Source of the DNA: a virus
Reading direction: 5' to 3' (one strand)
Virus record (IMG/VR): IMGVR_UViG_3300034104_004920
Location: 33,278 to 97,277 of that record
DNA length: 64,000 nt
The notes below the pieces were generated by a model. It was given only the letters and a program-made list of their open reading frames with translations. It was not told the DNA's origin and did no database searches. How positions within the stretch are numbered: position 1 is the stretch's first letter; the number at the start of each line of letters is the position of its first letter. This document shows positions 39,681-58,184 of this stretch, in pieces. Both the position numbers and the translations under genes were made by a program.

Positions 39681-39768
39681 ACCATATCTATAACCACAAA
39701 GGACTCGAACCTCATTTCTAGAATAGTTCCAAACTACCAGAGCGACTGGCTGTGGTTATAGATATGGT
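39681..39768 (-). ncRNA. stem-closed RNA with T-loop-like hairpin
   Basis: perfect 18-bp inverted repeat accatatctataaccaca / tgtggttatagatatggt; interior contains AGG-UUCGAGU-CCU. Confidence 0.5.
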
Positions 39769-39839
39769 GCCGCATGAGGGATTCGAACTCTCGACCTACC
39801 GCTTACAAGGCGGTTGCTCTACCACTGAGCTAAAACGGC
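39765..39839 (-). tRNA. tRNA-Thr(UGU)
   Basis: cloverleaf, loop CU-UGU-AA, encoded CCA. Confidence 0.92.
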
Positions 39840-39953
39840 GGCGGCACGACAGCCCATCCTGTTTTCGTCGTGCACTGAGGCGGGTTCGCAATTGCGGGGT
39901 GTACAGGCCCGCCCAAGACAGCCACCACGTACATTACTGCAGAGGTGGTGGGC
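39840..39953 (-). ncRNA. GC-rich pseudoknotted RNA of unknown class
   Basis: GCCCA/UGGGC, CCACC/GGUGG, GGGCGGG/CCCGCCU helices and crossing GCACGAC/GUCGUGC. Confidence 0.5.
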
Positions 39954-40037
39954 ATTTTATTAGGGTAGCAAGTGGTACGATAACCGTCGCAAGTGCTTAC
40001 TCGACGTACATCACATGAGCTACCCTAATAAAATGCC
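39951..40037 (-). ncRNA. stem-closed RNA cassette
   Basis: perfect 19-bp inverted repeat ggcattttattagggtagc / gctaccctaataaaatgcc. Confidence 0.45.
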
Positions 40038-40378
40038 ACGTGATTTGATAACAAGGACACGTGGCGAAAACCCTGGCTCAGCTAGTTTTTCAGGCTGCTA
40101 GAGCAAATACCTCATCGTTGGCATTTATTTTTGTTTTGCTGTTTCGGCCAGGAAACTCCCAACCCTACGGCTTTCGCATTGCCGAGCTGTCCATTTCGTT
40201 ACTCATTGCCCCGTCGAAACCAGGTCAGGCCCATCAAAAGCATACTAAGCGCACACGCAAACTCCTACAACTTCCGTCATCTAAGCTTGAGGCCTTAAGG
40301 TGTTAAGTATGCTTTTGGTGGACCTGGGCGGAATCGAACCGCCGTCCGGAACACTTTTCTCTCTACTTCATACAGCCA
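40035..40378 (-). ncRNA. ssrA: two-piece (circularly permuted) tmRNA, tag (A)ANDEVFALAA
   Basis: acceptor piece with T-arm ending CAGGUCCACCA at 40316 precedes coding piece starting GGGCCUGACCUGGUUUCGACGGGG at 40232; G3.U70; tag ORF 40122-40090. Confidence 0.92.
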
Positions 40379-40389
40379 TATTTAATTTT

Positions 40390-40662
40390 TCAGATATACT
40401 CTGAAAAATTAATCTTCATGCGTTCTGGAACGAACTCACGATAGTTATTTACCACGTCATATTCTTGGTAAATCTTCATTAGAGCAGCTTGAAACTCCTC
40501 CAGTGCTTTGTTGTACGCTGCGGCAAACTGTGCTTGTTCATCAGCCTCCAGTTCGCTAACATCAATGCAGGCCATTTTGTCAGTTGGATTGTTGAGCACA
40601 AGAGCTTCACGGTTAGAAACCTTGTTATTACGATCCACATATTCAAAGTCAATGAACTTCAA
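40390..40662 (-). CDS. hypothetical protein
   Basis: ORF behind promoter 40688-40716, TTG start with GGAG. Confidence 0.6.
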   Translation of the reverse strand: MKFIDFEYVDRNNKVSNREALVLNNPTDKMACIDVSELEADEQAQFAAAYNKALEEFQAALMKIYQEYDVVNNYREFVPERMKINFSEYI

Positions 40663-40687
40663 GACACTCTCCGTTGTTTAAAAATCT

Positions 40688-40716
40688 ATTATAGCCCTAT
40701 AAACAAAAACATTCAA
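40688..40716 (-). promoter_or_regulatory. sigma70-type promoter
   Basis: TTGAAT-17 nt-TATAAT. Confidence 0.7.
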
Positions 40717-40717
40717 A

Positions 40718-40984
40718 TCAATATTTTTGTTCTGTGATTAAACTGACATACAAACGATTCTTAAATTTTTCACTCAATTTTGGAACCAACACACTCCAGA
40801 TCAAGATTGGAGCTAACACAAAGCCGCCGATTAGTAACGAAAAAGTGGCCATTCTCCAGTTTCGTGCCACCATTGTTTCTGGTTCTGTGATGCGAACTTC
40901 TTTAATAACTGGCCAAAAAAGCTCGTACATTGCAGACAGTGCTGTTGTGATACAGAACAAACAGTAATATCCAAACAGTTCCAT
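40718..40984 (-). CDS. hypothetical membrane protein
   Basis: two hydrophobic segments. Confidence 0.6.
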   Translation of the reverse strand: MELFGYYCLFCITTALSAMYELFWPVIKEVRITEPETMVARNWRMATFSLLIGGFVLAPILIWSVLVPKLSEKFKNRLYVSLITEQKY

Positions 40985-41367
40985 TACACAAACCTCGCAC
41001 GCAAGCCAATTTGAAACATGGTCTTTGTGTTCAAGTCGGGCTGTGTCTTTGTCTTGCTGTACGGACCAGGCATCAACAATGCAGCAGCACTGATCTTTTC
41101 GTTGCTGTGGAAGATGTCACGATCTACACGACCTCTAAAAGTCTTGAACAGTTCAGCAATACGAATCTGAGTGTGTGACCATTGTGGAGTCTTTGGAATC
41201 TTGCGGCGATAAACAATGTTGTTTACAGCCTTTTCAGCCACTTTATCTTCTGGAAAACGTTTTAGATGGCGTGCAATCTTCTTCAATCGGTTAGATTCCC
41301 ACCGCTTTAGGGTCTTGTAGTTATTTGCTTGTGCTGTCTTGCTGTTACCGCCGCTCTTATTGCTCAA
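40984..41367 (-). CDS. basic hypothetical protein
   Basis: NR.KKIARHLKRFPED motif; coupled to neighbours. Confidence 0.6.
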   Translation of the reverse strand: MSNKSGGNSKTAQANNYKTLKRWESNRLKKIARHLKRFPEDKVAEKAVNNIVYRRKIPKTPQWSHTQIRIAELFKTFRGRVDRDIFHSNEKISAAALLMPGPYSKTKTQPDLNTKTMFQIGLRARFV

Positions 41368-42031
41368 TGTGTTCTCCGATAAAAAATTCTTTTAGTGATG
41401 GAAAGTGTTCAACCAGCTGGTCACGACAGCTAAAAGCAACCTGACGATGCTCTTTTTGTGTTCCGGCTTCACACCGAAGTTCGCAGTAGTGAATCCAGCT
41501 ACGCAGAGTGCCGCTCATGTACAACCGGCTCATTGTTAAACCTTCTGGTAGAACGGCACGAGCTTGTTCTTTTGCAATACCGTTACTAATGGCCCAGTCG
41601 TACGTTTGCTTTGCTTTGCGTACTACGTCTTGTTGCAGTTCTTTCCACAGATCTTGCAGTTCAGTATCGCTGGTTTCAATACTGTTTTGACGGTTTTTAT
41701 TGTCTTGCAGTCGCGCTTCTTTAAACTCAAAACCCAGCTCGTCTACAACAGCATATCGCTGAGAAAACTCCTGAAATGAAAAGCTGCGGTGTCGTAGGAT
41801 CTGACGTGCAATGTCACGAGTTGTATTGATTTCCATTACAACACTCACCATTTCAAATGGCGACCAGTGCTTGTTTTTAGCCAGGTATTTTAACAGCTTT
41901 GAGGCTGTTGAGGTATTGTGTTGGTTACTTGGATTGCTGACTCGTGCTGTGTAGGCAACCAAGTCTTCTGCACTGGACAGGTCTAACTCAAGAGGTTTTG
42001 TGATACCAATAATTTTGGCAATGTGCATCAA
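41357..42031 (-). CDS. thyX: FAD-dependent thymidylate synthase
   Basis: HWSPFE, RQILRHRSFSFQEFSQRY, ARAVLP, TQKEHR. Confidence 0.95.
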   Translation of the reverse strand: MMHIAKIIGITKPLELDLSSAEDLVAYTARVSNPSNQHNTSTASKLLKYLAKNKHWSPFEMVSVVMEINTTRDIARQILRHRSFSFQEFSQRYAVVDELGFEFKEARLQDNKNRQNSIETSDTELQDLWKELQQDVVRKAKQTYDWAISNGIAKEQARAVLPEGLTMSRLYMSGTLRSWIHYCELRCEAGTQKEHRQVAFSCRDQLVEHFPSLKEFFIGEHIEQ

Positions 42032-42312
42032 AACTCCGAAGTTGATGGAGTATCAAAACTGTTCTGTGCTACTTTTTGTGCGTTGTAGACTTGTTCTACA
42101 TCAAACATTAAGTCACCCAGTTCTGTTAAAACCTCAACTGGAAGCGGCATTACGCGACCGCACGTGTCGCGAATAACAAACTCGTCGTTGTCTGTGTATT
42201 GGACCTCAAACCAGTAGTGATTTACACCATCACTAAACACTGGAAAATCGTCGTCTTGTTGTAGGTCGTGAATTTTTGTGTTGATCTTTCCGATATACTT
42301 TGATAGATTCAT
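42028..42312 (-). CDS. hypothetical protein
   Basis: acidic ORF coupled to thyX. Confidence 0.55.
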   Translation of the reverse strand: MNLSKYIGKINTKIHDLQQDDDFPVFSDGVNHYWFEVQYTDNDEFVIRDTCGRVMPLPVEVLTELGDLMFDVEQVYNAQKVAQNSFDTPSTSEF

Positions 42313-42343
42313 TTTGATTTTGATTTTGATTTGTGTTGTTGAT

Positions 42344-42418
42344 TGGCGGTCCTGACGGGAATCGAACCCGTGTCACCGGCGTGACAGGCCGGCATAATAA
42401 CCGTTATACTACAGAACC
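42344..42418 (-). tRNA. tRNA-Asp(GUC)
   Basis: cloverleaf, CU-GUC-AC, G73, CCA. Confidence 0.92.
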
Positions 42419-42745
42419 TTTGATTTCGCCATTATTGTAAGCGTGTAGAAACTCTTTGTTGTATTGCTCAACAGAGCATCCAGTTGAGTTTATAACAAAC
42501 TGCTCCAGTTGAAGGTCTTTAAAGCCGTAGCTCATGCCTTCTAGAATTGCTGCAAAGATAAAGTAATTGTTCATATTTACTTAGCTAATAGTTTTACTTG
42601 GACGCAGGTGGCTTCTTGGTATTTTACTGCTTGCTGCATTCTAACACAGCTGGCTAGGTCTTCTACTGGAGGCCCGAACACAGTTGGTTTACCACCAGAA
42701 CTAATTACCAATACCCACACCAGTACAAAAGTTGTCATATTTATT

Positions 42746-42821
42746 TGGCCCCCACTCTTAGATTCGAACTAAGCACGCCAGGCTCTTCAGGCCTGCGCTC
42801 TACCAACTGAGCTAAATGGGG
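42746..42821 (-). tRNA. tRNA-Phe(GAA)
   Basis: cloverleaf, CU-GAA-GA, CCA. Confidence 0.9.
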
Positions 42822-43093
42822 ATAGAAGATACAAAACCTTCGCCTTCTGCTACAACACACATAATGTTATTGTCTGTTAAAACAAAAGTCCAGGTTTTAG
42901 TTGTTTTGTTCAAAAACAAACCGTATACAATCTCCTTTTTTTGTGACATCCAAACTGGAGATTCTTTGTACTTGGTTTGTAGTGCGTTAACTACTACATC
43001 GTGCTTGTCGCACTGTAGTGTGCTGTTTATTGTGACGGGATCAGCATATGCTAGATTTGCTGATAGTGCAAGCATTAAAAATGCTTTTTTCAT
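42812..43093 (-). CDS. small secreted protein
   Basis: signal peptide (AYA-D), two Cys, TWT..LT...C....GEG. Confidence 0.6.
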   Translation of the reverse strand: MKKAFLMLALSANLAYADPVTINSTLQCDKHDVVVNALQTKYKESPVWMSQKKEIVYGLFLNKTTKTWTFVLTDNNIMCVVAEGEGFVSSIPI

Positions 43094-43102
43094 ATAATCC
43101 TT

Positions 43103-43177
43103 TGGTACATCCTGTAAGAATTGAACTCACGACCCTTTCCGTGTAAAGGAAACGCTCTACCACTGAGCTAAGGATGC
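43103..43177 (-). tRNA. tRNA-Val(UAC)
   Basis: cloverleaf, UU-UAC-AC, CCA. Confidence 0.92.
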
Positions 43178-43178
43178 A

Positions 43179-43257
43179 TGGAGCGGGTAGGGAGAGTCGA
43201 ACTCCGCGTTAATCAGCTTGGAAGGCTGCTCCTGGCCCCTTCAGGTAGTCTACCCGC
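43179..43257 (-). tRNA. tRNA-Gly(UCC), atypical D-arm
   Basis: GCGGGUA/UACCCGC acceptor, U73, CU-UCC-AA, CCA; no U8 and non-canonical D region. Confidence 0.8.
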
Positions 43258-43347
43258 AGTTTTAGTTTGATACTACTACACAACTAACAAAATTGTGTTT
43301 TGAAATACCCCATACAATGAAGCTGGGCTTGTGTGGTGTTAGTACAA

Positions 43348-43587
43348 TCACAGTTGATGTACACCAGCACTGACGTCTTGATCTTCCAAGTAGGCAAGCA
43401 GAGTGTCTACTGCTTCGTCGTATTCCATGTTGGATACATCTGGTACAGTATCCATGTGGAAGTCTTCATCTTCCAAGAAGCCCAGAATTGCATCTACACC
43501 AGAAATGCAGTCGTCGTACACTTCGATTTGAACTTTACCGTCAATGTGATGATAAGCTGCAATTACAAAACTGTAAAGAGGTTCCAT
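43348..43587 (-). CDS. acidic hypothetical protein
   Basis: AGGA RBS, downstream of a TTGAGT/TAAAAT promoter-like site. Confidence 0.55.
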   Translation of the reverse strand: MEPLYSFVIAAYHHIDGKVQIEVYDDCISGVDAILGFLEDEDFHMDTVPDVSNMEYDEAVDTLLAYLEDQDVSAGVHQL

Positions 43588-43661
43588 TTGTTTGTTCCTT
43601 TGTTAGCGTTAAAAGAATATTTTACTTCAAAAACACAACACACTCAAGATTAAAATTTTAT

Positions 43662-43754
43662 TGGAGGAAGCGGTGAGACTCGAACTCACACACCTTTTTC
43701 AAGGCCTTCTGTTTTCAAGACAGTTGCCGCTAGTCCAACTCGGCTAACGCTTCC
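43662..43754 (-). tRNA. tRNA-Ser(UGA)
   Basis: long variable arm, CU-UGA-AA, CCA. Confidence 0.9.
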
Positions 43755-43758
43755 TTTT

Positions 43759-44316
43759 TTATTTATTTGCTAATGGATTGTCGAGTGCTTTCTTTATTTT
43801 TTCATCCATTTCTTTTGACATTTTTCTAAGATCTTGATCAGTTTCACGATCTAGTTTATTCATTTCCATTCTTACAGATTTCATTTCTTGATCTACGTCG
43901 CGTTGACTTTGTTTTGCACTTCTTTCAACGTTATCTACAACGCCTTCTAGTCTGCGAATATCTGTTTTTAGATCGTTTTTAATGTTGTTTGTGTAGTCTG
44001 TGGCTTGGGCTACATTAGTCTCTATGCCATCTAGTTTTTTGTCTAGTACACTTAACTTTTCAGTTATAGCAGTTAGGTCTGGGGTAACATATTCTGCTAT
44101 TTTCTTTTTCATGTTTTGATAGTCTTTGTAGACCTCAAAAGCCCCATATAATCCGCCTAAAATACTACTTGCAAGTGTAAAAGCTACCATTAGTTTAGCT
44201 GGCGTAAACTCATATCCGCCAATACTGATTACAGTATCTTTGCTTGCGTATTTTTTGGCCGTTTTTTCAAGTTGTTCTATTTTTTGATCAAGATCTTTTG
44301 TCTCCGCCATTATCAA
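43759..44316 (-). CDS. single-TM coiled-coil protein
   Basis: TM (AFTLASSILGGLYGAF) then heptads; ends KALDNPLA. Confidence 0.7.
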   Translation of the reverse strand: MIMAETKDLDQKIEQLEKTAKKYASKDTVISIGGYEFTPAKLMVAFTLASSILGGLYGAFEVYKDYQNMKKKIAEYVTPDLTAITEKLSVLDKKLDGIETNVAQATDYTNNIKNDLKTDIRRLEGVVDNVERSAKQSQRDVDQEMKSVRMEMNKLDRETDQDLRKMSKEMDEKIKKALDNPLANK

Positions 44317-45539
44317 TCTCCACGCCTGAACTGTATATCTACTAGTTCCTGCCAGCGGTTTTCTTGTGCGCCACCTAGTGTTCTTTGTGCGCTTCTGTTG
44401 TCGATTGTTCTTTGATTTCTATATACCTCTCGTACTGGATAAAAAGGAATGTCTTTTAAGACCAAAGCACTGTAGTTTGAAAAGCCAGTTGGTATAACCT
44501 GAAAAGCACTAACCTCTGGTCCGCCTACAATTTCTTGCGGTGAATTAACCGCCAGTGGTTGTTGTTTTTCTGTTGTTTGAGTAGGTTTAGGTGCAACATT
44601 CTGTATTAAAACTACTGGATTTTCTTTTTGTTCTTGTACTACTACTTCTTGCTGAACAACCACTCTAGTATTTTCTGTTACCCTGCTTGCTACCACATTT
44701 TGTTGCGTTGCGCGCTGCAGTGCTGTTGGTACAATCTCTGTGGCTTCTACTGCAGTGGTTCTACCACAAATCTGTGGGTTTGTACTACAATTCTTTTCTA
44801 AAAGTGCTCTGGAGTATCCGGGGCACTGTGTGCTGTATAGTGGGTCTAAGTTACATTGTTGAGACAAATAGGCAGCATTGTAGTTTTTACAAGAAACATT
44901 GTATACTGGGTTAAAGTCGCACTGCTGTAGTGGATCGTAGTAGTAACTAAAATCTTTTAGCTCTGTGTTATTTCCATAGCTTCTAAACCAGTTTTTATAT
45001 TCATATTTACTTAAGTCACCGCTGTAACCTATTGTAACTGGCTGGCGAGATAACGACACAGAGTTGTATCTAAACTCAAAACTGTTGTTATTCCACAACT
45101 GTACTTCAAAGCTGTTTTTTCTAACAGGATTACGATATTCCATCATATCGTACCAGCCTATTACTACATTGTCGGTCCCCAGTCTTATATAAGGACTTTT
45201 GTTGTTAGACACTAAGTCTGTCCAAAGTGGAAACAATGTGTAATTGTACTGAGAATCCAGGTTTTTATTTAATACCTGCGGCCAATACCCGGGCCTTATG
45301 TTTTCATTAAAACTAACAATGCCATTGGTATTTACTGCAACAGTATTAAAATTTCTTCCGAAAAACTGAAAGCTAAAAGGCAGTGTTATAGGACCACTGG
45401 TACCCTCGTCACTTAAGTTGAGTGGCGTTCCTGTTTTTCGTATGTCTAATAGTGGATTAGTGCTGTGAAAAGTCTGAGCACTAGAACAGCCAACCCATGA
45501 TCCTAGTAAACAAGCCAGGACTGTTACTTGTTTTTTCAT
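44313..45539 (-). CDS. secreted protein with NIDO-like domain and Cys repeats
   Basis: signal peptide; LSDEG.SGPI.LPFSF.FFG......V.TNGIVSF...FPLWTDL...NSFEV.L; repeats QQC..[ND]P.Y...C..Y. Confidence 0.7.
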   Translation of the reverse strand: MKKQVTVLACLLGSWVGCSSAQTFHSTNPLLDIRKTGTPLNLSDEGTSGPITLPFSFQFFGRNFNTVAVNTNGIVSFNENIRPGYWPQVLNKNLDSQYNYTLFPLWTDLVSNNKSPYIRLGTDNVVIGWYDMMEYRNPVRKNSFEVQLWNNNSFEFRYNSVSLSRQPVTIGYSGDLSKYEYKNWFRSYGNNTELKDFSYYYDPLQQCDFNPVYNVSCKNYNAAYLSQQCNLDPLYSTQCPGYSRALLEKNCSTNPQICGRTTAVEATEIVPTALQRATQQNVVASRVTENTRVVVQQEVVVQEQKENPVVLIQNVAPKPTQTTEKQQPLAVNSPQEIVGGPEVSAFQVIPTGFSNYSALVLKDIPFYPVREVYRNQRTIDNRSAQRTLGGAQENRWQELVDIQFRRGD

Positions 45540-46119
45540 TTTGTGTGTCCTTGTTCAAGACTGGTTTTTGATGTGGATTGTTAGTCCACAAGACCTTGGC
45601 TTGGTCGCCTATTTTTCCATCATACGGACAAGGAGTGCCTGCTTCCCACATGGCATCAAACACTCGTCTGTCTTGACACAACAGTGTAACAGCTGCCACT
45701 TTCATTCCCATGTCGAATAGCGTTTTGCTCAGCTTTAGTCGTTCACAGTTTAGATCTCGCACAGTACTACCACTGCTCAATCCCAACACCTGAGTTTGCA
45801 TTGCACCGCCTGTTCCTGTAGCGCATAAATCTGGGTTACCGCCACTCATCATGCTTGGCGCAACAGCCGTTGGCGGAGGCTGGATTATTTTTTGCACAGT
45901 ATCGTTTTTGTTGGTACTTTCTTGTACAACACTGCTTTGATTTATATTTGTATTTGTGCTGGTAGTATTTCCGTTATTTGTGCTAGTAATAACACTAGTA
46001 GTTGTATTTGTAGTATTTGTATTTGTGTCTAACAGACTCTTATTGTCGTAGACGGTTTGCCCAAACACATAAAAGCTGCTAATGCAAAGCATTGCAGCTA
46101 CAATTTTTGTCTTTAACAT
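45481..46119 (-). CDS. secreted protein with T/N-rich stalk and Cys-rich domain
   Basis: signal peptide; PPPTAVAP...DLC...D.NCERLKLSKTL.DMGMKVAAV.LLCQD.RVF.AM..AGTPCP. Confidence 0.7.
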   Translation of the reverse strand: MLKTKIVAAMLCISSFYVFGQTVYDNKSLLDTNTNTTNTTTSVITSTNNGNTTSTNTNINQSSVVQESTNKNDTVQKIIQPPPTAVAPSMMSGGNPDLCATGTGGAMQTQVLGLSSGSTVRDLNCERLKLSKTLFDMGMKVAAVTLLCQDRRVFDAMWEAGTPCPYDGKIGDQAKVLWTNNPHQKPVLNKDTQNEKTSNSPGLFTRIMGWLF

Positions 46120-46132
46120 TACTGCTCCTAAT

Positions 46133-46729: not shown

Positions 46730-46875
46730 TTAGTAAAAGACTCTAGAATGTGTTTAAGAGAATGCACTTCTCTCCAAAACTGGAACCACACCAACCACGA
46801 TATGGTATTTTGGATACTGTTTCACCGTTCTAGATCGGCTGCTGGTAAGGCACTTTGTCTCACATCTTTTACTAA
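46730..46875 (-). ncRNA. stem-closed multibranch RNA between tRNA-Asn and tRNA-Ser
   Basis: ttagtaaaaga / tcttttactaa; inner UCUAGAA/UUCUAGA, UCCAAAA/UUUUGGA, AGAGAA/UUCUCU. Confidence 0.5.
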
Positions 46876-48863: not shown

Positions 48864-48966
48864 TGGTAGGAGAGGTGGGAATCGAACCCACATTACTCCG
48901 CCTTATCTAGACGGTGCTCTACGAGTTTATAAGGCTCGCCCTTAGGCCAATATTAGCAACTCTCCC
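48864..48966 (-). tRNA. 103-nt tRNA-Ile-like RNA with two anticodon-like arms (UAU and GAU)
   Basis: GGGAGAG/CUCUCCU-A-CCA; arm 1 GCGAG-C-CUUAUAA-A-CUCGU; arm 2 CCGUC-UAGAUAA-GGCGG; canonical T-arm. Confidence 0.7.
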
Positions 48967-49055
48967 ATAAGTTAGCATACATTAAAATATCCTTCAGTAA
49001 TTGCAATACTATCTCCCGTTTGCATCGGGCGGAATATTTGTATGCTAACTTATGG
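48965..49055 (-). ncRNA. stem-closed RNA cassette
   Basis: perfect 17-bp inverted repeat ccataagttagcataca / tgtatgctaacttatgg. Confidence 0.45.
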
Positions 49056-49056
49056 A

Positions 49057-49181
49057 AAGAAAGCGGTCTACTATTACACGCTGGTTACACTGTCCAGTCG
49101 TTACCGTTACGCTAGTGAGGCATCCTAGTCGCCAGTAATAGCATTATAGGTTCAGCAGAATTATCCTGCAACCGCTTTCTT
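49057..49181 (-). ncRNA. stem-closed multibranch RNA
   Basis: aagaaagcggt / accgctttctt; inner GCUAUUAC/GUAAUAGU and three short hairpins. Confidence 0.5.
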
Positions 49182-51871: not shown

Positions 51872-52065
51872 AGGTTTGCTTTGTATTGTTTGATTGCGTC
51901 AGCATCGACAGATGCGTAGACACGGAACTTGTCGCGTCCTACTGTGTCGTAGAACTCGTTATACATTTTTTCTAGGCTTTCGACTTGCTCTGCGGTCAGC
52001 AGACTGCAATGCACAAAGCGGTCAAGAGCCACATCTATCAAAAACTGTTTAGAATAGCCTGCCAT
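51868..52065 (-). CDS. hypothetical protein
   Basis: GAGG RBS behind promoter 52088-52116. Confidence 0.55.
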   Translation of the reverse strand: MAGYSKQFLIDVALDRFVHCSLLTAEQVESLEKMYNEFYDTVGRDKFRVYASVDADAIKQYKANL

Positions 52066-52087
52066 AGTATTCCTCATCAAAGAAACT

Positions 52088-52116
52088 ATTATACAGGCTA
52101 TGATTAAACAATTCAA
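52088..52116 (-). promoter_or_regulatory. sigma70-type promoter
   Basis: TTGAAT-17 nt-TATAAT. Confidence 0.7.
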
Positions 52117-52118
52117 TC

Positions 52119-52925
52119 TTAGATTTCTACAGTCTTCAACCTGAAAGTCTTAGCCAGACTTTCGTATCCAATGTACCCACGAGGATTGCACACTACTCGT
52201 GTGTTTCCAATATTGTAGTCATGCGGATCGTGGGTGTGTCCGTGAAACCACAGTGGCACATTGTTGAAGCCTAGGATATCTTCTTCCAGGTTGTTGTAGT
52301 ATGCCCAGTTAACAGAGTCGTTTGCTGGGTAGCGTGGGTGTTTACTCAGTGAGCTAGGACCATGATGAGTAACAACTACTACGGGCAGGTCTGTGTTTTT
52401 CACAAAACCCATTAGTGCGTTCTTGCTGTGTACATGCCGACTAACACTATCTTTTGCTTTCAGTTTTCTGTACGTGCCACTATCATAGGTGATCTTGGCG
52501 TAGTCGTTCATGGAATATTCAATATCCATCATTGTGAGTGGATCCATGTTGTTCATGTCTGTCCACAGAGTACAACCGTAGAATTCTACGCCATTTACTC
52601 TTAGATGATTGTCTTCCAAAAAGTACACGTTGTTGTAGTTGTCAACAGTCCAGTCACGTAGAACGTCTAGGGTCTTGTTCCACTTGTAATTGTAAAACTC
52701 GTGGTTTCCTGCCACGTAGATCACAGTGTCAAACTCTTTACTGGCTTGATCAAAGAACTTCTTTGTTGCCAAATACGTTTCATGGTATGGGCCTTCAGAG
52801 CTGGCCCTCAGAGCTCGTGCAAGTGTGATGTCTCCTGCACAGACCAGTACGTCTGCATCGTGTGTATTGATCAAGTCCAGTTCACCAAATTCAAGGTGAA
52901 CATCACTGCAAATTGAGATCTTCAT
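52119..52925 (-). CDS. metallophosphoesterase
   Basis: SDVHLE, AGDI, GNHE, THH.P, HGHTH, NPRGY. Confidence 0.9.
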   Translation of the reverse strand: MKISICSDVHLEFGELDLINTHDADVLVCAGDITLARALRASSEGPYHETYLATKKFFDQASKEFDTVIYVAGNHEFYNYKWNKTLDVLRDWTVDNYNNVYFLEDNHLRVNGVEFYGCTLWTDMNNMDPLTMMDIEYSMNDYAKITYDSGTYRKLKAKDSVSRHVHSKNALMGFVKNTDLPVVVVTHHGPSSLSKHPRYPANDSVNWAYYNNLEEDILGFNNVPLWFHGHTHDPHDYNIGNTRVVCNPRGYIGYESLAKTFRLKTVEI

Positions 52926-53109
52926 TTTTTACTTCTTCAGCGGGTGTGTTATTGCTTCTGGTCAATCCTTCGATTACCTGTTGAAGCGTTACAATAGCTC
53001 TTGCTGCTTGTAGCTCCAAACTGGTTGGAGGGGTGTGACCCACCAACACTTCGTCTTTGTAAACAGGTTTTGGATTGTTTAATAGTTGTACTAGAATGTT
53101 ATAGTTCAT
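52903..53109 (-). CDS. hypothetical protein
   Basis: short ORF directly after tRNA-Arg. Confidence 0.5.
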   Translation of the reverse strand: MNYNILVQLLNNPKPVYKDEVLVGHTPPTSLELQAARAIVTLQQVIEGLTRSNNTPAEEVKNEDLNLQ

Positions 53110-53183
53110 GGCCGGGCGTGCAGGAATCGAACCCACATTCAGAGCTTAGAAGACTCCTGTATTCTCCATTATACGAACGCCCG
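53109..53183 (-). tRNA. tRNA-Arg(UCU)
   Basis: CU-UCU-AA, CCA. Confidence 0.9.
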
Positions 53184-53285
53184 GTTTGTGGTTTATTATA
53201 ACTTTTTTCATTGGCTGGTTCAACATCATAATCAATGATGTCATAGTATTCTGGTTTTAAGATAACCAGCTTTTCCCAAGTATCT

Positions 53286-54281
53286 TTATTCATGATTCAT
53301 TTCAACACAGAATTTATTATGGGCCAAGTTTTTGGTCTTAGACTCCAGCATGATATCGTGTGTGTTGGAGAAGCTGTAAGCCCAACGATTACATGAACGA
53401 TTCCAGTAGTAGTCACTGTGCGCGCGCAATTGAGTTTTTGTAAACCCGTTGTTGATCAACAGATCTAGTTCTGGAAGGTCGGACTCGCTCCACACATCAC
53501 TCAACACTTCTTCTCGTGAGACTGAATAGTGGATCACAGGACGTACACCACGCCAACTATCTATCAGTTTCAACACTCGAGTATCGTCTGGTTCGATATA
53601 CTCGCCTGTACGAATCCAGTGATGATGAATGTCTAAGACCAGTGCACAATGATCTATTAATTCCAAGCTGGACTCCAACCCCCACTTGAACTCGTCGTTT
53701 TCGATTGTGATGACGTTTTTAGCCGTACTGCTCAGCTTTTTCAACACACTTTTAATACCGTCTGGGCCCAGCTGACCGCCGATGTGTACGTTGCACTTGA
53801 AGTCTTGAAAACTTTGACCATAACCCATCATTCGGATCATGTCGCAGTGGTATTCAAACTCCATGACGGAGTTTGAGACAACGCCTGGATTGTTGGATGC
53901 CAACACACAAAACTGACCAGGATGGAAACTCAGGCGAACGTCAAGAGAACGGGCTAACTCACCAATCTTTTGAAACTCCCTCACCAAGATCTGTTGGACG
54001 GATGGTTGACAATAAAACCAGAACCAGTCGTCGTGAGTGTAGGCTGGTAGTACATCGCTTGAAATCCGTAGCATTCGGTGACTTGGCGAACGGCCCCCCA
54101 CCCACTTTACCTGCTGAAGTAGTGCGTTTAGATTGTGAGTGATTAGAGCGTGCAACTTTGATTCTGCAGCCTGCTTTGTGGCGTTATTCAACCACGTAAT
54201 AGTGGTAGTCTTGATGTTCGGTACTGGTACATCCTCGAACTTGCAAGCAAAGCCTACTCGATTGATATTTTGATTGAACAT
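53286..54281 (-). CDS. uvsE: UV-damage endonuclease
   Basis: GFACK, RISSD, RLSFHPGQF, IENDE, LDIHHH, HYS, AHSD, MLESK. Confidence 0.92.
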   Translation of the reverse strand: MFNQNINRVGFACKFEDVPVPNIKTTTITWLNNATKQAAESKLHALITHNLNALLQQVKWVGGRSPSHRMLRISSDVLPAYTHDDWFWFYCQPSVQQILVREFQKIGELARSLDVRLSFHPGQFCVLASNNPGVVSNSVMEFEYHCDMIRMMGYGQSFQDFKCNVHIGGQLGPDGIKSVLKKLSSTAKNVITIENDEFKWGLESSLELIDHCALVLDIHHHWIRTGEYIEPDDTRVLKLIDSWRGVRPVIHYSVSREEVLSDVWSESDLPELDLLINNGFTKTQLRAHSDYYWNRSCNRWAYSFSNTHDIMLESKTKNLAHNKFCVEMNHE

Positions 54282-54282
54282 T

Positions 54283-54507
54283 TTAATAAGGCCTCAAATT
54301 CATCCAGTGATCTTCGTTTTCGTCTTCTGGAATACTGTCTACAATCCATCTTTCCAGTTCAGATATACGACCTCCAAGCTGGAGCGTTTGCAGCTCGATA
54401 TTGTGTTCTAGTGGACAAGGTATCAGGTCTCTAGCATTGAATATTTGTGCATTATGTACAATCAGTCTTTTTGGTTTAAAATTTAGTTTATTGAATGGCT
54501 TGCTCAT
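54283..54507 (-). CDS. hypothetical protein
   Basis: ORF behind promoter 54514-54542. Confidence 0.5.
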   Translation of the reverse strand: MSKPFNKLNFKPKRLIVHNAQIFNARDLIPCPLEHNIELQTLQLGGRISELERWIVDSIPEDENEDHWMNLRPY

Positions 54508-54513
54508 GTGTCT

Positions 54514-54542
54514 ATTATAATAGACTAAAAAACTAAAATCAA
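54514..54542 (-). promoter_or_regulatory. sigma70-type promoter
   Basis: TTGATT-17 nt-TATAAT. Confidence 0.7.
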
Positions 54543-54543
54543 G

Positions 54544-55140
54544 TCAGGGATTGTGTAAGTAAAATGCTTTGCTAAAACCGAGTGGAGTAATACTGCGTAG
54601 TTCTTTTGTTTTTTCTGATTTGCCGCCCAGCTTCATGATGGGTGAGTTACCTAAAAGAGGGTATACTGGTTTTTTGACAGGAACATTGAAAACCCCCCAC
54701 AATCCAGTACGCTTGTTATATGCCTCCGATGTTGGGTCGTCTAAGTACCCAGCATAATCACAAGGATTAAAGTAGTACGGCTTTTTTAGGCCTGGAAATA
54801 ATGTATTCAATCGTCCAACTGGATTTTCTAAACACCACCAGACCGGCTTGTAATAGTCTACAAACTCAAACACTTTGTTGACCAATGACACGCTGTAGTC
54901 TGTGCGCCCGTCCAAATCCTTCGCCTTCCAATACTGAGCACCACTGCTTGCAAAGTCTGTGCAGGGAGGAGCTGCCAATATTCCGTGTACACTTTCCAGT
55001 CCCAACTCGCTTGGTACTAGGTCTAATACGTCTATGCCCAATTTTAAGTCAAACCTGTAAACATCATAGCCGGAATTTTTGTAATAACTACTCCAGTTTC
55101 CGCTGTGGTCAAAAAGAGATATTATTGTTTTACAATCCAT
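54544..55140 (-). CDS. small DNA cytosine-C5 methyltransferase-like protein
   Basis: ISLFD.SG (motif I variant), LAAPPCTDF (IV), LENP (VI), K.T.LWG, RS.TP.GF. Confidence 0.75.
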   Translation of the reverse strand: MDCKTIISLFDHSGNWSSYYKNSGYDVYRFDLKLGIDVLDLVPSELGLESVHGILAAPPCTDFASSGAQYWKAKDLDGRTDYSVSLVNKVFEFVDYYKPVWWCLENPVGRLNTLFPGLKKPYYFNPCDYAGYLDDPTSEAYNKRTGLWGVFNVPVKKPVYPLLGNSPIMKLGGKSEKTKELRSITPLGFSKAFYLHNP

Positions 55141-55336
55141 AAAATCGCTTACACACTTTGCAGATTGGATTGGAGTCTAAATCTAATACCAATTCACTAC
55201 TCTTATACCAGATACTACAGCTGCTGCATGTTTCCAAGGTGTTCAGTGGAGCGTCTTCGACTGGTATGTTGAATTCTTTGCAGGCCTCTAAAAGGCTTAT
55301 TTTTCTGCGATAGATACTGTTTTCAAAACTGTTCAT
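55130..55336 (-). CDS. zinc-ribbon small protein
   Basis: CSSC and CKVC. Confidence 0.55.
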   Translation of the reverse strand: MNSFENSIYRRKISLLEACKEFNIPVEDAPLNTLETCSSCSIWYKSSELVLDLDSNPICKVCKRFYGL

Positions 55337-55674
55337 CTTATTTTTCTGTCGTCATTGGTATAAATATCCTTGTGTTGGATGTAATACAAAAGAAAGATTA
55401 GGTTACACACAGCGTGTGCTAAGTGGCTTTCGCCTGTTTCAGGATCCAGATCACGTCCTCGAGTCCACTCAAAGATGTGGCGCAGAGTGGCTGAAATTAC
55501 TCGTGTGTACTTAAAACCTGATCCCTCACTCCAGTTCCAGGCTGAGTACTTCTGACTACCGAAGTGTAACACTCGTACCACAGGCTCCAGGGCTTCCATT
55601 GGGATCAAACTCCAGTCCAGTTTGGAGCTGTCGTGTTTGACTGGAGATATTTGTTTTGTTAGGTTATCATTCAT
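55333..55674 (-). CDS. dATP/dGTP diphosphohydrolase-domain protein (DUF5664-like)
   Basis: K.D..K..WSL.P......V..VL.FG..KY..WNW..G.......A..RH...W..G...DPE.G.SHLAHA.CN..FL. Confidence 0.82.
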   Translation of the reverse strand: MNDNLTKQISPVKHDSSKLDWSLIPMEALEPVVRVLHFGSQKYSAWNWSEGSGFKYTRVISATLRHIFEWTRGRDLDPETGESHLAHAVCNLIFLLYYIQHKDIYTNDDRKIR

Positions 55675-55909
55675 TTATAGTAAAAATTAGAGGGCCCGGT
55701 ACTTCCCCGGGCAAAAAGAACGGTACCTTTCTTTTAAGCACGATTACCCTGTGCTTCTAGTATAAAACGCAGATATAACACAATTTCTGCAAATAACTGC
55801 CGTGCGGGTTTTGTAGAGGTTTGTGTAGTATTTCTACGCTTGCGAACGGCTTAGGGACTATTTTTTTGCTTCTTGGCTACTCGCCTGTTAGAGGTAAATG
55901 CCAAAACCT

Positions 55910-56092
55910 CTAGTGGTATTCTTTTTTGGGCTGCAGTAGTGCGGCCGTTTTGGGCTTTAAAACTTTAAACAACTCTAGTGTTAGTGCTGGAGGGTCCAGG
56001 TTCTTTTCTTGGAAGTAACGATTGTAGACTGGTAATAGTTCGTTTACAATGCATTCTTCTAAAATGACAACATAGGGTTCTTTAAAATTCAT
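55910..56092 (-). CDS. hypothetical protein
   Basis: GGAG RBS before ATG 56092. Confidence 0.45.
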   Translation of the reverse strand: MNFKEPYVVILEECIVNELLPVYNRYFQEKNLDPPALTLELFKVLKPKTAALLQPKKEYH

Positions 56093-56164
56093 GTGGAGTC
56101 TCCAACAAAACAACATTATAACATAGGGATATTGTTGTTTCAAACGCAAATTTTAAAGTGGTAT

Positions 56165-56197
56165 AAAAACAAAAAGCCCACGAAAGTGGGCTTTGTT
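56165..56197 (-). terminator. intrinsic terminator
   Basis: AAAGCCCAC-UUUC-GUGGGCUUU followed by UUGUUUUU on - strand. Confidence 0.85.
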
Positions 56198-57048
56198 GCT
56201 GGATTTCTTTCTCCAGCGAGAATCCTAGTAACAGCTAGGGTCCAGTTTAAGGTTTTTTGTTCTGATAGGTTAGACTTCCTAACAACACAGTTATCATCAC
56301 ACTGTATTGTGGTAGCAGTTTAAGCACTCTGCACAAACTCCAAGGAGTGTTCTGTTAAATCTCCCTGATATGCGCCTGTGGGATTATGCGGACCCACATT
56401 CCAGCATTATCTGTTGGTCTTAGTTAGAAGAAGGCGACTGTATTTCAAACGGTTCTTTCCGTACAGTGTTATAGCACACTGTTTCGCTCTGATGCAATAG
56501 AGACTATTGCTACTCCCAAGAAGAGGTACCGATGAAGCTGGTACGGACTAACAATACTAAAAATTGTTGCTGCTATCTTGACTAGTAGTCGTACCACTTC
56601 TTGAATGATCACGGCGTATTTTTGTGTGCCTACAAAAATACCTAGCCTGAATCAAACTCAGTGGGCTCTGAGGTTTCATCGTAACAGACAACGCCAACAG
56701 GCATTGCTGGTTTTAGTATTATTGGTTGTATTGTCTTGTTATGGACAACAATAACCCTATTGTCGTTTGCTTTTAACGATGTCTACTTATACAAGGGCAG
56801 TGGCCACTGCTGATCTTGCTTTCGTTACAGTGATAGTGACCAAGGACTTAACCCTGACCACTGGACATCAACTCGTGTAGGACGTTGATCACCGGAGCCT
56901 ACATTGATAGTGCATTAGCCTGGTGAACACAGGCTTTTTCCAAAACAATACAACTAATAATACTACTAGAGGGCTGTGGCTCGGAGTATACTTTTCCCAC
57001 AATTAAGACGTATGGCAGATTACCGCCACCGCTGTCGCCCCATATTAG
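56171..57048 (-). ncRNA. large (~880 nt) structured non-coding RNA of unknown class
   Basis: no ORF of 60 aa or more on the transcribed strand; own promoter and terminator; long-range helices and pseudoknots (see findings). Confidence 0.7.
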
Positions 57049-57054
57049 ACAACT

Positions 57055-57083
57055 ATTATAGTACTTTTAATAGTATCAAACAA
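57055..57083 (-). promoter_or_regulatory. sigma70-type promoter of the large RNA
   Basis: AAAAATTTAGAC-TTGTTT-17 nt-TATAAT. Confidence 0.75.
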
Positions 57084-57097
57084 GTCTAAATTTTTAT

Positions 57098-57196
57098 ACC
57101 ATAGTTCAACACACTAGCGGCGTGATAAGATCAGAGCCATCTCGTTTAAAGGTTGCTATTACTGAGCAAACCTCCACTAATGTGTTGAACTATGGC
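57098..57196 (-). ncRNA. shared-stem RNA cassette 4
   Basis: GCCAUAGUUCAACACAUUAG ... CUAGUGUGUUGAACUAUGGU. Confidence 0.55.
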
Positions 57197-57265
57197 GGCA
57201 GTGTTGCTGCCTCAGGAATCCCGGCCCTCAGTGCTAAGAGAACACCTACATGCCACCCTACTCTT

Positions 57266-57337
57266 ACCATAGTTCAACACACTTCCCAACCTAACCCGGG
57301 ATGCTGTTTGTACATTAGAAATGTGTTGAACTATGGC
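57266..57337 (-). ncRNA. shared-stem RNA cassette 3
   Basis: GCCAUAGUUCAACACAUUUC ... GAAGUGUGUUGAACUAUGGU. Confidence 0.55.
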
Positions 57338-57520
57338 AACGCCCCCTAAAGCGTAGCATAGTGTCTTGTACCAGGACGACGATCCCGCTGTATCTTAATA
57401 GAGGATAGTACTATTCTACAGCGGCATAGTACTATTTTTCGCCTTGTTGCACTGTACAATCTAGGGAATGATTGTACGTCGTGTGGCACCTCAGCTCGAG
57501 GGTTCATAAGAACCTCGGTG

Positions 57521-57675
57521 TTATGGTAGCAGGGTTCGAACCTGCAGTTGAATAGTCTGTCGCACTAGCTATTCTGGTCAGGTTTTGCCATGAGTGCGAG
57601 TCCTGCATCTTAATGCAGACGACTGTCCGTATAGGCTTTTCCTCGACCGTGTTCTCCGATTTTCACCATACCATA
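57521..57675 (-). ncRNA. 155-nt tRNA-like RNA with expanded anticodon domain
   Basis: UAUGGUA/UACCAUA acceptor, D-arm, T-arm GCAGG-UUCGAAC-CCUGC; no anticodon loop. Confidence 0.7.
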
Positions 57676-57856
57676 GTTGTCCAGACCCGAGTGGAGACGT
57701 CTGAACCTTTCTATCTCATTCCACCATTAGACCCGTTAACTAGAGGTCAGCTAGATCCAAGATAAAGTGGAGTACTTGGACGTTTGTGTTGATCCACTAT
57801 CAGACCATTTGAACCTAGCGGTCGGCTAGGGTTTGAGTACAAGAGTTATGATTTTT

Positions 57857-57967
57857 ACCATATTTCAACACACTGCTGCGGCCGCAGACTACCGAGTACA
57901 TAACGCACGGAGGAGCAACCCTTGCCGATCTGCTGTACTGACTCGTCACAATGTGCTGAAATATAGC
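57857..57967 (-). ncRNA. shared-stem RNA cassette 2
   Basis: GCUAUAUUUCAGCACAUUG ... CAGUGUGUUGAAAUAUGGU. Confidence 0.55.
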
Positions 57968-58062
57968 GACCCTTTGTAGGCAGGATTCGAACCTGCAAGT
58001 GGCTTCTACCACCACCGGCCCCAATGCGGGCCTATGTTTACCAGTTTCCATCACTACGGGTC
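57967..58062 (-). ncRNA. tRNA-like RNA (class II scaffold) lacking a canonical anticodon loop
   Basis: D-arm, variable arm, T-arm GCAGG-UUCGAAU-CCUGC; acceptor GACCC-GUAG / CUAC-AAA-GGGUC. Confidence 0.65.
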
Positions 58063-58108
58063 CTCGGAGTCATGACTTCCGAGTATGGTTGAGGGTAGCT
58101 ACTCCTCT

Positions 58109-58184
58109 ACCATATTTCAACACACTGCTGAACAATCGTCAGTCTTCCTAAACAATCGTTAGGATCAATGTGCTGAAATATGCC
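58109..58184 (-). ncRNA. shared-stem RNA cassette 1 (twin CGAUUGU loops)
   Basis: GGCAUAUUUCAGCACAUUG ... CAGUGUGUUGAAAUAUGGU. Confidence 0.55.

What the first reader, a model, noticed from the sequence alone, without database searches (positions are those of the whole stretch)
39681..58184. About nine long-stem-closed RNA cassettes interleaved with tRNAs
Seen: 11-20-bp terminal inverted repeats enclosing 35-125 nt of unrelated but foldable sequence at 39681-39768, 39951-40037, 46730-46875, 48965-49055, 49057-49181, 57098-57196, 57266-57337, 57857-57967 and 58109-58184. Most start with an NCCAU/GGCAU-like sequence and end in AUGG/AUGCC. They butt directly against tRNA or tmRNA ends, like the tmRNA intervening hairpin. 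Inference: a modular small-RNA expression system in which tRNA processing (RNase P/E, or RNase III in the stems) releases stable stem-capped RNAs with interchangeable payloads, for example decoys for host defence proteins.
Basis: partly seen in the sequence, partly recalled or inferred. Interest (0 to 1): 0.75.

Follow-up and report, generated by a model that had tools for sequence, protein, structure and literature searches.

The report
Stem-clamped small RNAs in phage tRNA array
Between the tRNA genes of this uncultured T5-like lake phage lie small RNA genes, six of which enclose a different short RNA in versions of one conserved 17-18 base-pair stem; that stem recurs around more than 200 different inserts in other phages, is essentially absent from bacterial genomes, and has no known function.

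Summary
All nine hairpins are real and lie on the tRNA (minus) strand, but they are not one class.

- **Canonical members (4):** 57098-57196, 57266-57337, 57857-57967 and 58109-58184 belong to a conserved "stem-clamp" RNA family. The consensus is 5'-RCCAUAUUGAAGCACAUU-[payload]-AGUGUGUUUCAAUAUGGU-3'.
- **Divergent members (2):** 39681-39768 and 48965-49055 keep only the CCAUA/UAUGG ends.
- **Not members (3):** 39951-40037, 46730-46875 and 49057-49181 are unrelated long-stem RNAs.

The same scan over 185,579 prokaryote species gave two doubtful hits. Stem positions that the pattern left free are almost always complementary, with compensatory swaps. G.U pairs place the RNA on the tRNA strand (211 versus 21). 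The stem always starts with RCCA, and in 65 of 232 cases this is the CCA end of the upstream tRNA. Payloads fall into 229 clusters out of 342. Empty clamps are rare. Several payload families covary.

The phage polymerase is 49% identical to T5-like phages. T5 annotates eight "stable RNAs with unknown functions" in its tRNA region, some closed by a stem, so the general kind is known. The shared clamp with swappable payloads matches no Rfam family or searchable paper. This scan noted the same family earlier on other genomes. Release by tRNA processing is inferred from the geometry. The decoy role is untested.

The parts
57098..57196 (-). Canonical stem-clamp RNA F. Stem GCCAUAGUUCAACACAUU.../...AGUGUGUUGAACUAUGGU with a payload of about 50-60 nt.
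   Evidence: Fold z -7.7. The payload is 98-100% conserved in L011, L024, L056 and L059.
57197..57265 (-). Module Y, a structured RNA between two clamps. It ends in a 5-bp hairpin followed by GCCA, and that GCCA is the first four bases of the next clamp.
   Evidence: Homologues in 14 loci at 75-96% identity. Nine pairs show changes on both sides in an 11-sequence alignment.
57266..57337 (-). Canonical stem-clamp RNA G, with a payload of about 26-38 nt.
   Evidence: Fold z -5.3. The payload is 87-90% conserved in L059, L056 and L011.
57857..57967 (-). Canonical stem-clamp RNA H (GCUAUAUUUCAGCACAUUG variant), with a payload of about 70 nt that has no homologue in the fetched loci.
   Evidence: Fold z -3.7. 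22-bp stem with 5 G.U on the minus strand. No payload hit. In L058 and L169 the same tRNA-like RNA lies beside a clamp with another payload.
57972..58060 (-). tRNA-like RNA with a T-arm, a long extra arm and an abnormal anticodon loop, just upstream of clamp H.
   Evidence: ARAGORN calls it tRNA-???. It is 86-92% conserved in L011, L024, L056, L058 and L169.
58109..58184 (-). Canonical stem-clamp RNA I. The payload has two hairpins with the same CGAUUGU loop.
   Evidence: Fold z -7.1. The payload is 95-100% conserved inside three different stem variants in L011, L024, L056, L059, L104 and L140.
39681..39768 (-). Divergent clamp RNA A (ACCAUAUCUAUAACCACA...). Its first four bases are the ACCA end of tRNA-Thr. 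The payload is a sealed tRNA-like body: a D-like hairpin, a middle hairpin and a T-arm GAGGUUCGAGUCCUU.
   Evidence: Sequence. Fold z -5.9. Overlap with tRNA-Thr 39765-39839. One A>G change in L001 keeps the pair as G.U.
48965..49055 (-). Divergent clamp RNA D (CCAUAAGUUAGCAUACA...). Its last G is base 1 of the 100-nt tRNA at 48867-48966.
   Evidence: Identical in L001.
49057..49181 (-). Stem-closed RNA E with an unrelated stem (AAGAAAGCGGUUGC), starting 3 nt after tRNA-Ile. Not a family member.
   Evidence: Fold z -4.3. A compensatory U-A to C-G change in an inner helix relative to L001.
46730..46875 (-). Long hairpin C between tRNA-Asn and tRNA-Ser. Not a family member. It is a spacer hairpin whose interior is expanded by 122 nt.
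   Evidence: Fold z -3.4. In the 96-99% identical relative L001, 10 nt stand in place of the 122 nt and the arms are kept.
39951..40037 (-). Hairpin B, a perfect 19-bp stem around 49 nt, at the 3' end of the permuted tmRNA gene. Not a canonical member.
   Evidence: Fold z -7.2. It lies where the beta_tmRNA model has its terminal hairpin.
58267..58295 (-). Sigma-70-like promoter (TTGAAA-17-TATAAT, 11 of 12 matches) upstream of the protein-free RNA operon that holds I, H, G, Y and F.
   Evidence: The next strong terminator-like site on this strand is at 56173-56194.

Best explanation
Six of the nine elements are genes for "stem-clamped" small RNAs, an RNA family found in phages.

Proposed steps:
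1. They are co-transcribed with the tRNAs and tRNA-like RNAs of the array.
2. In the precursor, an 18-bp helix forms between the RCCA that ends the upstream RNA plus the next 14 nt and a 3' arm ending in UAUGGU.
3. Normal maturation of the flanking tRNAs cuts at the base of this helix. One cut falls after CCA on the 5' side, possibly by RNase E, RNase Z/BN or RNase III. RNase P cuts at G+1 on the 3' side where a tRNA follows.
4. This frees a 60-130 nt RNA with both ends buried in a 14-17 bp helix. Such an RNA should resist exonucleases and accumulate, as the annotated stable RNAs of the T5 tRNA region are said to.
5. The clamp acts as a portable handle for processing and stability. The enclosed payload is the working part. 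About one payload family in ten is a sealed tRNA look-alike.

Shown: family membership, RNA-level pairing, phage specificity, payload conservation and exchange. Inferred: the cut sites, the stability and any action of the payload on other molecules.

The other three elements are unrelated stem-closed RNAs or spacer hairpins of the same array.
For: **Stem pairing.** Consensus and conservation of the 17-18 bp stem are. The four stem positions that the search pattern left free are complementary in nearly all of 137 hits once the sense strand is allowed for, with GC/AT/TA/CG swaps.

**Strand.** The sense strand inferred from G.U pairs matches the nearest tRNA in 211 cases against 21.

**Junctions with tRNAs.** The upstream tRNA's CCA is the start of the stem in 65 of 232 cases. 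The downstream tRNA starts at the G of UAUG|G in 18 cases. In the window this applies to A and D. The base before CCA is A (69%) or G (22%) and pairs with a conserved U. Upstream RNAs that are not tRNAs end in a hairpin followed by RCCA.

**Distribution.** The IMG/VR scan stopped at 120 stretches, on contigs from about 4 to 400 kb. GTDB genomes gave 2 doubtful hits.

**Payloads.** They form 229 clusters out of 342. Empty clamps are rare, 4 in about 350. Payload families covary and there is a compensatory change relative to L001. A T-loop motif is enriched: GGTTCGA occurs in 7 of 113 payload families against 0.3 expected.

**Precedent.** The polymerase is 49% identical to T5-like phages. T5 annotates eight stable RNAs in its tRNA region, and its RNAIII has a 12-bp closing stem that abuts the 5' end of tRNA-His.

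**Expression, weak hint.** Contigs from four lake RNA libraries cover 56259-56987 and 57285-57942 at depth 28-99, against 2-5 for coding parts of the same stretch.
Against: - No read ends or small-RNA data exist. The RNA contigs break at the repeated stems and come from 90-97% identical relatives, so discrete products are not shown.
- The cut after CCA would fall inside a helix, and no enzyme is shown to make it.
- Payloads on their own fold no better than shuffles (mean z -0.31).
- No partner protein emerged. The genome (estimated 92% complete) has no RNase III, TROVE, CCA-adding enzyme, RtcB or PF04308 gene. No gene family lies near the clamps in more than 21 of 128 loci.
- Close relatives lose cassettes (L025 lacks 57160-57320), so single cassettes are dispensable.
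- Strong conservation of the stem sequence across very different phages is more than stability alone would need.
Confidence: 0.55

Rival explanations
1. The clamps are only processing punctuation or folding insulators. They help separate and mature the neighbouring tRNAs and RCCA-ended RNAs, and the interiors do nothing once released.
For: Every clamp starts at an RCCA end and many abut tRNAs on one or both sides. Payloads alone are not unusually stable. Cassettes come and go between close relatives. 46730-46875 is a simple spacer hairpin in L001.
Against: Empty clamps are almost never seen, 4 in about 350, although a bare hairpin would suffice. Payload families are kept at 75-100% identity across contigs whose stems differ, and they show compensatory changes. 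About 10% of payload families carry a T-arm stacked on the clamp.
Confidence: 0.2
2. The conserved arms matter mainly at the DNA level. They would be short homology or recognition sites that let RNA modules be exchanged between co-infecting phages, or the ends of a small mobile element. The RNA hairpin would be a by-product.
For: The array is a mosaic. Each module of 57098-58184 recurs in other contigs in other orders and contexts, and homology breaks at module borders. Hybrid cassettes with mismatched arms exist, such as L024:4184-4260 and L025. HNH endonuclease genes lie near clamps in 17 of 128 loci.
Against: G.U asymmetry follows the direction of tRNA transcription, 211 against 21. Compensatory changes keep the two arms of each cassette paired. 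Own-arm pairing is better than pairing with the neighbouring cassette's arm, 15.8 against 14.8 of 16. Copies within one genome carry different payloads, unlike a MITE burst. This genome has no tyrosine recombinase or HNH_3 gene. This reading is compatible with the RNA reading and does not exclude it.
Confidence: 0.15
3. The nine elements are an unrelated mix of terminators, RNase III sites and decayed tRNA genes with nothing in common.
For: Three of the nine have unrelated stems. One sits at a tmRNA terminator-like position. One is an expanded spacer hairpin. Other long stems occur outside the array at 26257, 28893, 33466, 60209 and 62619.
Against: Four share one stem and two more share its ends. 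The same stem recurs in more than 120 viral contigs next to tRNAs. None of the nine hairpins is followed by a run of T in the stretches read.
Confidence: 0.05

Closest known systems
Phage T5 small stable RNAs of the tRNA region (RNAI, RNAIII, RNAIV, RNA1, RNA2, RNA2H, RNA3, RNAX; record NC_005859)
   Same: The phage lineage is the same by polymerase (49% identity). These RNA genes are interleaved with tRNAs on the tRNA strand and directly abut tRNA ends. RNAIII and RNAIV close with 10-12 bp terminal stems. RNA1 and RNA2 are tRNA-like with T-arms. RNAI ends in GCCA. T5 also has one large RNA (RNAX, 719 nt), comparable to the roughly 880-nt RNA at 56171-57048. All are annotated "stable RNA with unknown functions".
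   Different: The T5 RNAs do not share a closing-stem sequence with each other. The clamp pattern is absent from T5. T5 stems are shorter and do not start at an RCCA. No sequence similarity was found.
Phage T4 rnaC and rnaD (species 1 and 2 RNAs)
   Same: They are small stable RNAs of unknown function inside a phage tRNA cluster, next to tRNA-Arg. rnaC has a T-arm and rnaD ends in ACCA.
   Different: They have no long closing stem and no shared scaffold. They resemble the RCCA-ended modules such as Y more than the clamp RNAs.
Y RNAs with Ro60 (bacterial and phage YrlA)
   Same: A terminal stem formed by the two RNA ends serves as a constant handle, with variable and sometimes tRNA-like inner modules. 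Several copies occur per phage.
   Different: This genome has no TROVE/Ro60 gene, and only 2 of 25 clamp-bearing contigs do. There is no Rfam Y-RNA or YrlA match at E up to 5. The stem sequence differs and starts at an RCCA end.
Engineered paired-termini antisense RNAs, and tRNA-linked hairpin RNAs of murine gammaherpesvirus 68 (from my own knowledge, not checked here)
   Same: The idea is the same: flanking inverted repeats stabilise an insert, and tRNA processing frees an adjacent hairpin RNA.
   Different: One is synthetic and the other belongs to a eukaryotic virus. There is no sequence relation. No antisense target of the window's payloads was found in the phage genome.

Membership tests
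Stem-clamp RNA family of phage tRNA arrays (undescribed; defined here and in earlier notes of this scan) | A 17-18 bp closing helix with consensus RCCAUAUUGAAGCACAUU / AGUGUGUUUCAAUAUGGU | tested here: met
   Met by 57098-57196, 57266-57337, 57857-57967 and 58109-58184. Only the CCAUA/UAUGG ends are met by 39681-39768 and 48965-49055. Not met by 39951-40037, 46730-46875 or 49057-49181.
Stem-clamp RNA family of phage tRNA arrays | Lies on the tRNA strand inside a phage tRNA array, with the stem starting at an RCCA end | tested here: met
   In the window, the ACCA of tRNA-Thr starts element A, and GCCA or GCUA precedes F, G and H.
Stem-clamp RNA family of phage tRNA arrays | Encloses a variable payload of about 18-230 nt and is rarely empty | tested here: met
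T5/T4-type stable RNAs of phage tRNA clusters | Gene embedded in a tRNA cluster, oriented with the tRNAs and abutting them | tested here: met
T5/T4-type stable RNAs of phage tRNA clusters | Accumulates as a discrete stable RNA during infection | not testable with these tools
   Only assembled contigs from RNA libraries were available. They show presence at higher depth than coding parts but no ends.
T5/T4-type stable RNAs of phage tRNA clusters | Sequence homology to a T5 or T4 stable RNA | tested here: not met
   No phage-record match to 57090-58190 apart from a tRNA-like piece. The clamp pattern is absent from T5.
Y RNA / YrlA with Ro60 | A Ro60 (TROVE) gene in the same genome, usually adjacent | tested here: not met
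   No match in the own genome, estimated 92% complete. 2 of 25 clamp-bearing contigs have one.
Y RNA / YrlA with Ro60 | Match to the Rfam Y-RNA or YrlA covariance models | tested here: not met
   No such hit at E up to 5 over 39000-59000.
RNase III processing stems (rRNA-flanking or T7 R1.1 type) | About two turns of double-stranded RNA that RNase III cleaves with a 2-nt stagger | tested here: inconclusive
   Helix length of 17-25 bp fits. Cleavage cannot be tested. No phage RNase III gene in 26 records.
MITE or DNA transposon | Terminal inverted repeats around one common interior, with near-identical copies and a transposase somewhere | tested here: not met
   Interiors differ between copies. 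The arms differ systematically in a way that keeps G.U pairs on the transcribed strand. No recombinase gene was found.

The most novel reading that the evidence does not exclude
The clamp is a universal handle that a conserved host or phage factor recognises by its sequence. Phages would use it as a plug-in socket, exchanging through recombination at the arms a large library of small RNAs. These include sealed tRNA mimics that could act as decoys or inhibitors of host tRNA-targeting defences or RNA-processing enzymes. In effect this would be an exchangeable RNA cassette system inside tRNA arrays.
Probability: 0.3. Interest if true: 0.9.

Novelty: new variant of a known kind. Interest (0 to 1): 0.75.

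Why it matters
Phage tRNA clusters have been known for decades to encode small stable RNAs whose function is still unknown (T4 rnaC and rnaD; eight RNAs in T5).

This family shows that, in a large group of uncultured freshwater phages ranging from about 97 kb T5-like genomes to fragments of genomes estimated at several hundred kb, such RNAs are built on one common, sequence-conserved stem that carries hundreds of different inserts. That turns a scattered curiosity into a defined RNA class with a testable architecture.

The conserved handle gives a bait for finding the binding or cutting factor. The payload families give candidates for RNA decoys or regulators. The design, with both ends buried in a helix that starts at a tRNA CCA end, is a natural counterpart of engineered RNA-stabilising scaffolds.

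Tried and rejected
- **Rfam.** Gathering thresholds and E up to 5 gave no family for any cassette. Eleven related loci gave only tRNAs, tmRNA, group I introns and one GOLLD RNA.
- **Y RNA with Ro60.** No TROVE gene.
- **Phage-encoded RNase III, CCA-adding enzyme, RtcB or PF04308.** All absent from this genome. RNase III was found in 0 of 25 related contigs and PF04308 in 9 of 25.
- **Neighbour-gene enrichment over 128 loci.** The most frequent families (a metallophosphoesterase, a T4 RNase H-like 5'-3' exonuclease, and PF04308) each reach only 21 loci.
- **Antisense targets of the payloads in the phage genome.** None beyond chance.
- **Splicing as the reason four RNA libraries skip 57519-57677.** Rejected. 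Homology in L097 and L141 stops at 57519, and the 159-nt tRNA-like module occurs elsewhere in L024, L056 and L182, so this is a module present or absent in the DNA.
- **RNA contigs as evidence of RNA ends.** Rejected, because they break at the repeated arms.
- **Cultured phages.** No match to the four-cassette region. No clamp pattern in T5, Alcaligenes phage QDWS595, Limnohabitans phage DC31, Melnitz-1 or Curvibacter phage P26059A. BLAST cannot find bare 17-nt arms, so absence from the whole phage collection is not shown.
- **Literature.** Six stem words gave no paper. Keyword searches found nothing that describes the family.
- **Payload A as a homologue of the L058 and L081 payloads.** The alignment is too weak to claim more than the same class.

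Full report
**Setting.** The window is the last 64 kb of a single 97,277-bp virus record estimated 92% complete. Twenty-four tRNA or tRNA-like genes and a permuted tmRNA all lie on the minus strand between 39.7 and 58.6 kb. The DNA polymerase is 49% identical over 98% of its length to polymerases of T5-like phages such as BF23, AAS21 and KEY. DNA runs that hold the stretch come from lake and freshwater metagenomes. I read this as an uncultured, distant T5-like freshwater phage.

**The observation.** Each of the nine intervals folds on the minus strand into an RNA closed by a long terminal stem. MFE z-scores run from -3.4 to -7.7 and no shuffle folds as well. The minus strand of the window carries 14 stems of at least 17 bp with at most one mismatch around 20-170 nt. 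Shuffles give 1.0 +/- 0.95. The stems are longer on the minus strand because several pairs are G.U, which would be C.A mismatches on the other strand. The structures therefore act as RNA made in the tRNA direction.

The nine are not uniform:
- Four (57098-57196, 57266-57337, 57857-57967, 58109-58184) share one stem in two covarying subtypes, AGUUC/GAACU and AUUUC/GAAAU.
- Two (39681-39768, 48965-49055) share only the CCAUA...UAUGG ends.
- Three (39951-40037, 46730-46875, 49057-49181) have unrelated stems.

**A conserved family.** The exact 15-mer of the stem occurs as paired plus and minus matches in IMG/VR contigs. The same pattern over one genome for each of 185,579 prokaryote species (596 Gb) gave two MAG contigs. 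One has a different inner stem and no tRNA nearby; the other has no qualifying hairpin.

From 342 cassettes in 135 loci the consensus is 5'-R-CCAUAUUGAAGCACAUU-[payload]-AGUGUGUUUCAAUAUGG-U-3'. It includes a mostly conserved U.G pair at position 16 and a G.U/A-U/G-C pair at position 11. The four stem positions that the pattern left free are complementary in nearly all of 137 hits once the sense strand is taken into account, with GC, AT, TA and CG variants. The sense strand inferred from G.U pairs agrees with the nearest tRNA in 211 cases against 21. Of 331 cassettes, 273 lie within 500 nt of a tRNA.

**Junctions.** The base before CCA is A (69%) or G (22%) and pairs with a conserved U after UAUGG. 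The helix therefore begins with RCCA, the universal tRNA 3' end. In 65 of 232 cassettes this CCA is the end of an annotated tRNA. In 18 the downstream tRNA begins at the G of UAUG|G. In the window, element A begins with the ACCA of tRNA-Thr, and element D ends at base 1 of the tRNA at 48867-48966. Where no tRNA is annotated upstream, the RNA before the clamp usually ends in a short hairpin followed directly by RCCA. One example is module Y (57197-57265), which has homologues in 14 loci and nine pairs with changes on both sides.

If these tRNAs are functional, their maturation must cut at both feet of the helix, and that would free the clamp RNA. This is an inference from geometry. No enzyme or RNA end was observed.

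**Payloads.**
- The 342 payloads fall into 229 clusters with a median length of 47 nt.
- Clamps without a payload are almost absent, 4 in about 350.
- Families are conserved across contigs and show compensatory changes.
- The payload of 58109-58184 occurs in three different stem variants.
- The payloads of 57098-57196 and 57266-57337 recur in L011, L024, L056 and L059.
- 49057-49181 differs from its copy in L001 by a compensatory U-A to C-G change.
- Payloads alone are not more stable than shuffles.
- The T-loop word GGTTCGA occurs in 7 of 113 payload families against 0.3 expected. In those payloads the T-arm stacks on the clamp as it would on an acceptor stem, giving sealed tRNA look-alikes. 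Element A is of this kind.
- No payload has a convincing antisense target in the phage genome.

**Mosaicism.**
- Each module of 57098-58184 recurs in other contigs in other orders, and homology breaks at module borders.
- L025 is 96-97% identical over the stretches it shares with the window, but lacks 57160-57320.
- L001 is 94-99% identical but carries 10 nt in place of 122 nt inside 46730-46875.
- Four lake RNA libraries contain contigs that skip 57519-57677. Because homology in L097 and L141 stops at 57519, and the 159-nt tRNA-like module occurs elsewhere in other contigs, I read this as a DNA module that is present or absent, not as splicing.
- A cassette's 3' arm pairs better with its own 5' arm than with the next cassette's 5' arm, 15.8 against 14.8 of 16.

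**Expression.** A near-consensus promoter at 58295-58267 precedes a stretch of about 2.1 kb with no credible gene, which runs to a terminator at 56194-56173. In the four RNA libraries, contigs over 56259-56987 and 57285-57942 have depth 28-99. Contigs over coding parts of the same 9.9 kb have depth 2-5. These are assembled contigs from 90-97% identical relatives and they break at the repeated arms, so this is only a weak hint of abundance and says nothing about RNA ends.

**Partners.**
- The genome has no RNase III, TROVE/Ro60, CCA-adding enzyme, RtcB, PF04308, tyrosine recombinase or HNH_3 gene.
- Among 25 large clamp-bearing contigs, none has RNase III, 2 have TROVE and 9 have PF04308.
- No gene family lies near the clamps in more than 21 of 128 loci.
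- Processing, if it occurs, is therefore most likely done by host enzymes.
- From my own knowledge, the conserved AU|AUU one base after CCA fits the RNase E preference RN|WUU, and a 17-25 bp helix is a possible RNase III substrate. Neither was tested.

**Comparison with what is known.** The T5 record annotates eight "stable RNA with unknown functions" among its tRNA genes. When folded, RNAIII has a 12-bp closing stem and abuts the 5' end of tRNA-His. RNAIV is closed by a stem, RNA1 and RNA2 are tRNA-like, and RNAI ends in GCCA. T4 rnaC and rnaD lie in the same kind of place but have no long closing stem.

The general kind, stem-closed or tRNA-like stable RNAs interleaved with phage tRNAs, is therefore known, and its function has stayed unknown. 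What I could not find anywhere is one sequence-conserved clamp shared by hundreds of payloads and by very different phages. It was absent from Rfam 15, from T5 and four other cultured phages, and from searchable papers. Two earlier notes of this scan (e1-5765934, e1-5367156) describe the same family on other genomes and also left its function open. My tests agree with them.

**Verdict.** Six of the nine elements belong to, or are divergent relatives of, an apparently undescribed stem-clamp RNA family found in phages. Release by tRNA processing is a reasoned inference. The decoy role is open.

Noticed in passing
window 48867-48966 (-): A 100-nt tRNA found only by Rfam (35.9 bits), with a long extra arm and an odd 9-nt or mismatched anticodon loop around UAU.
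   Followed up: no
window 57972-58060 (-): A tRNA-like RNA that ARAGORN calls tRNA-??? with a 2-base anticodon. It is 86-92% conserved in L011, L024, L056, L058 and L169, and 74% similar to an unannotated spot in the cultured Alcaligenes phage vB_Af_QDWS595 (OK149171.2, 52632-52723).
   Followed up: partly
window 57519-57677 (-): A 159-nt tRNA-like module whose acceptor stem is UAUGGUA/UACCAUA. Contigs from four lake RNA libraries skip it, and in other contigs (L024, L056, L182) it sits in other places. It looks like an exchangeable module rather than an intron.
   Followed up: partly
window 56171-57048 (-): A gene-free stretch of about 880 nt, noted earlier as an ornate RNA. RNA-library contigs cover it at depth 28-53. 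Parts are 78-90% similar to L024:3883-4114 and L069. L024 also carries a GOLLD RNA at 2411-2870. T5 has a 719-nt stable RNAX next to tRNA-Arg.
   Followed up: partly
window 26257-26347, 28893-29003, 33466-33560, 60209-60300, 62619-62719 (-): Further 17-19 bp closing stems around 54-75 nt, outside the tRNA array and stronger on the minus strand. Their stem sequences are unrelated to the clamp. Some overlap small ORFs or gene junctions.
   Followed up: partly
window 50765-50835 (-): An extra tRNA found by Rfam (39.5 bits) but not by ARAGORN, just downstream of tRNA-Met.
   Followed up: no
L174:13115-13579 and 20 other loci; 9 of 25 large clamp-bearing contigs: A roughly 155-aa PF04308 (RNase H-like, DUF458) gene is one of the commonest neighbours of clamp cassettes, but it is absent from this genome and from the complete 400-kb contig.
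   Followed up: partly
L001:6092-6397 against window 49266-49268: The 95-96% identical relative carries a 306-bp insertion, which appears to hold a small ORF, between tRNA-Gln and tRNA-Ile. Other gene-sized indels lie at window 54286-54529 and 50842-51235.
   Followed up: no
L058:7381-7572, L058:12747-12981, L078:13185-13378: Group I introns, and in L058 a permuted tmRNA, sit in the tRNA arrays of clamp-bearing contigs.
   Followed up: no
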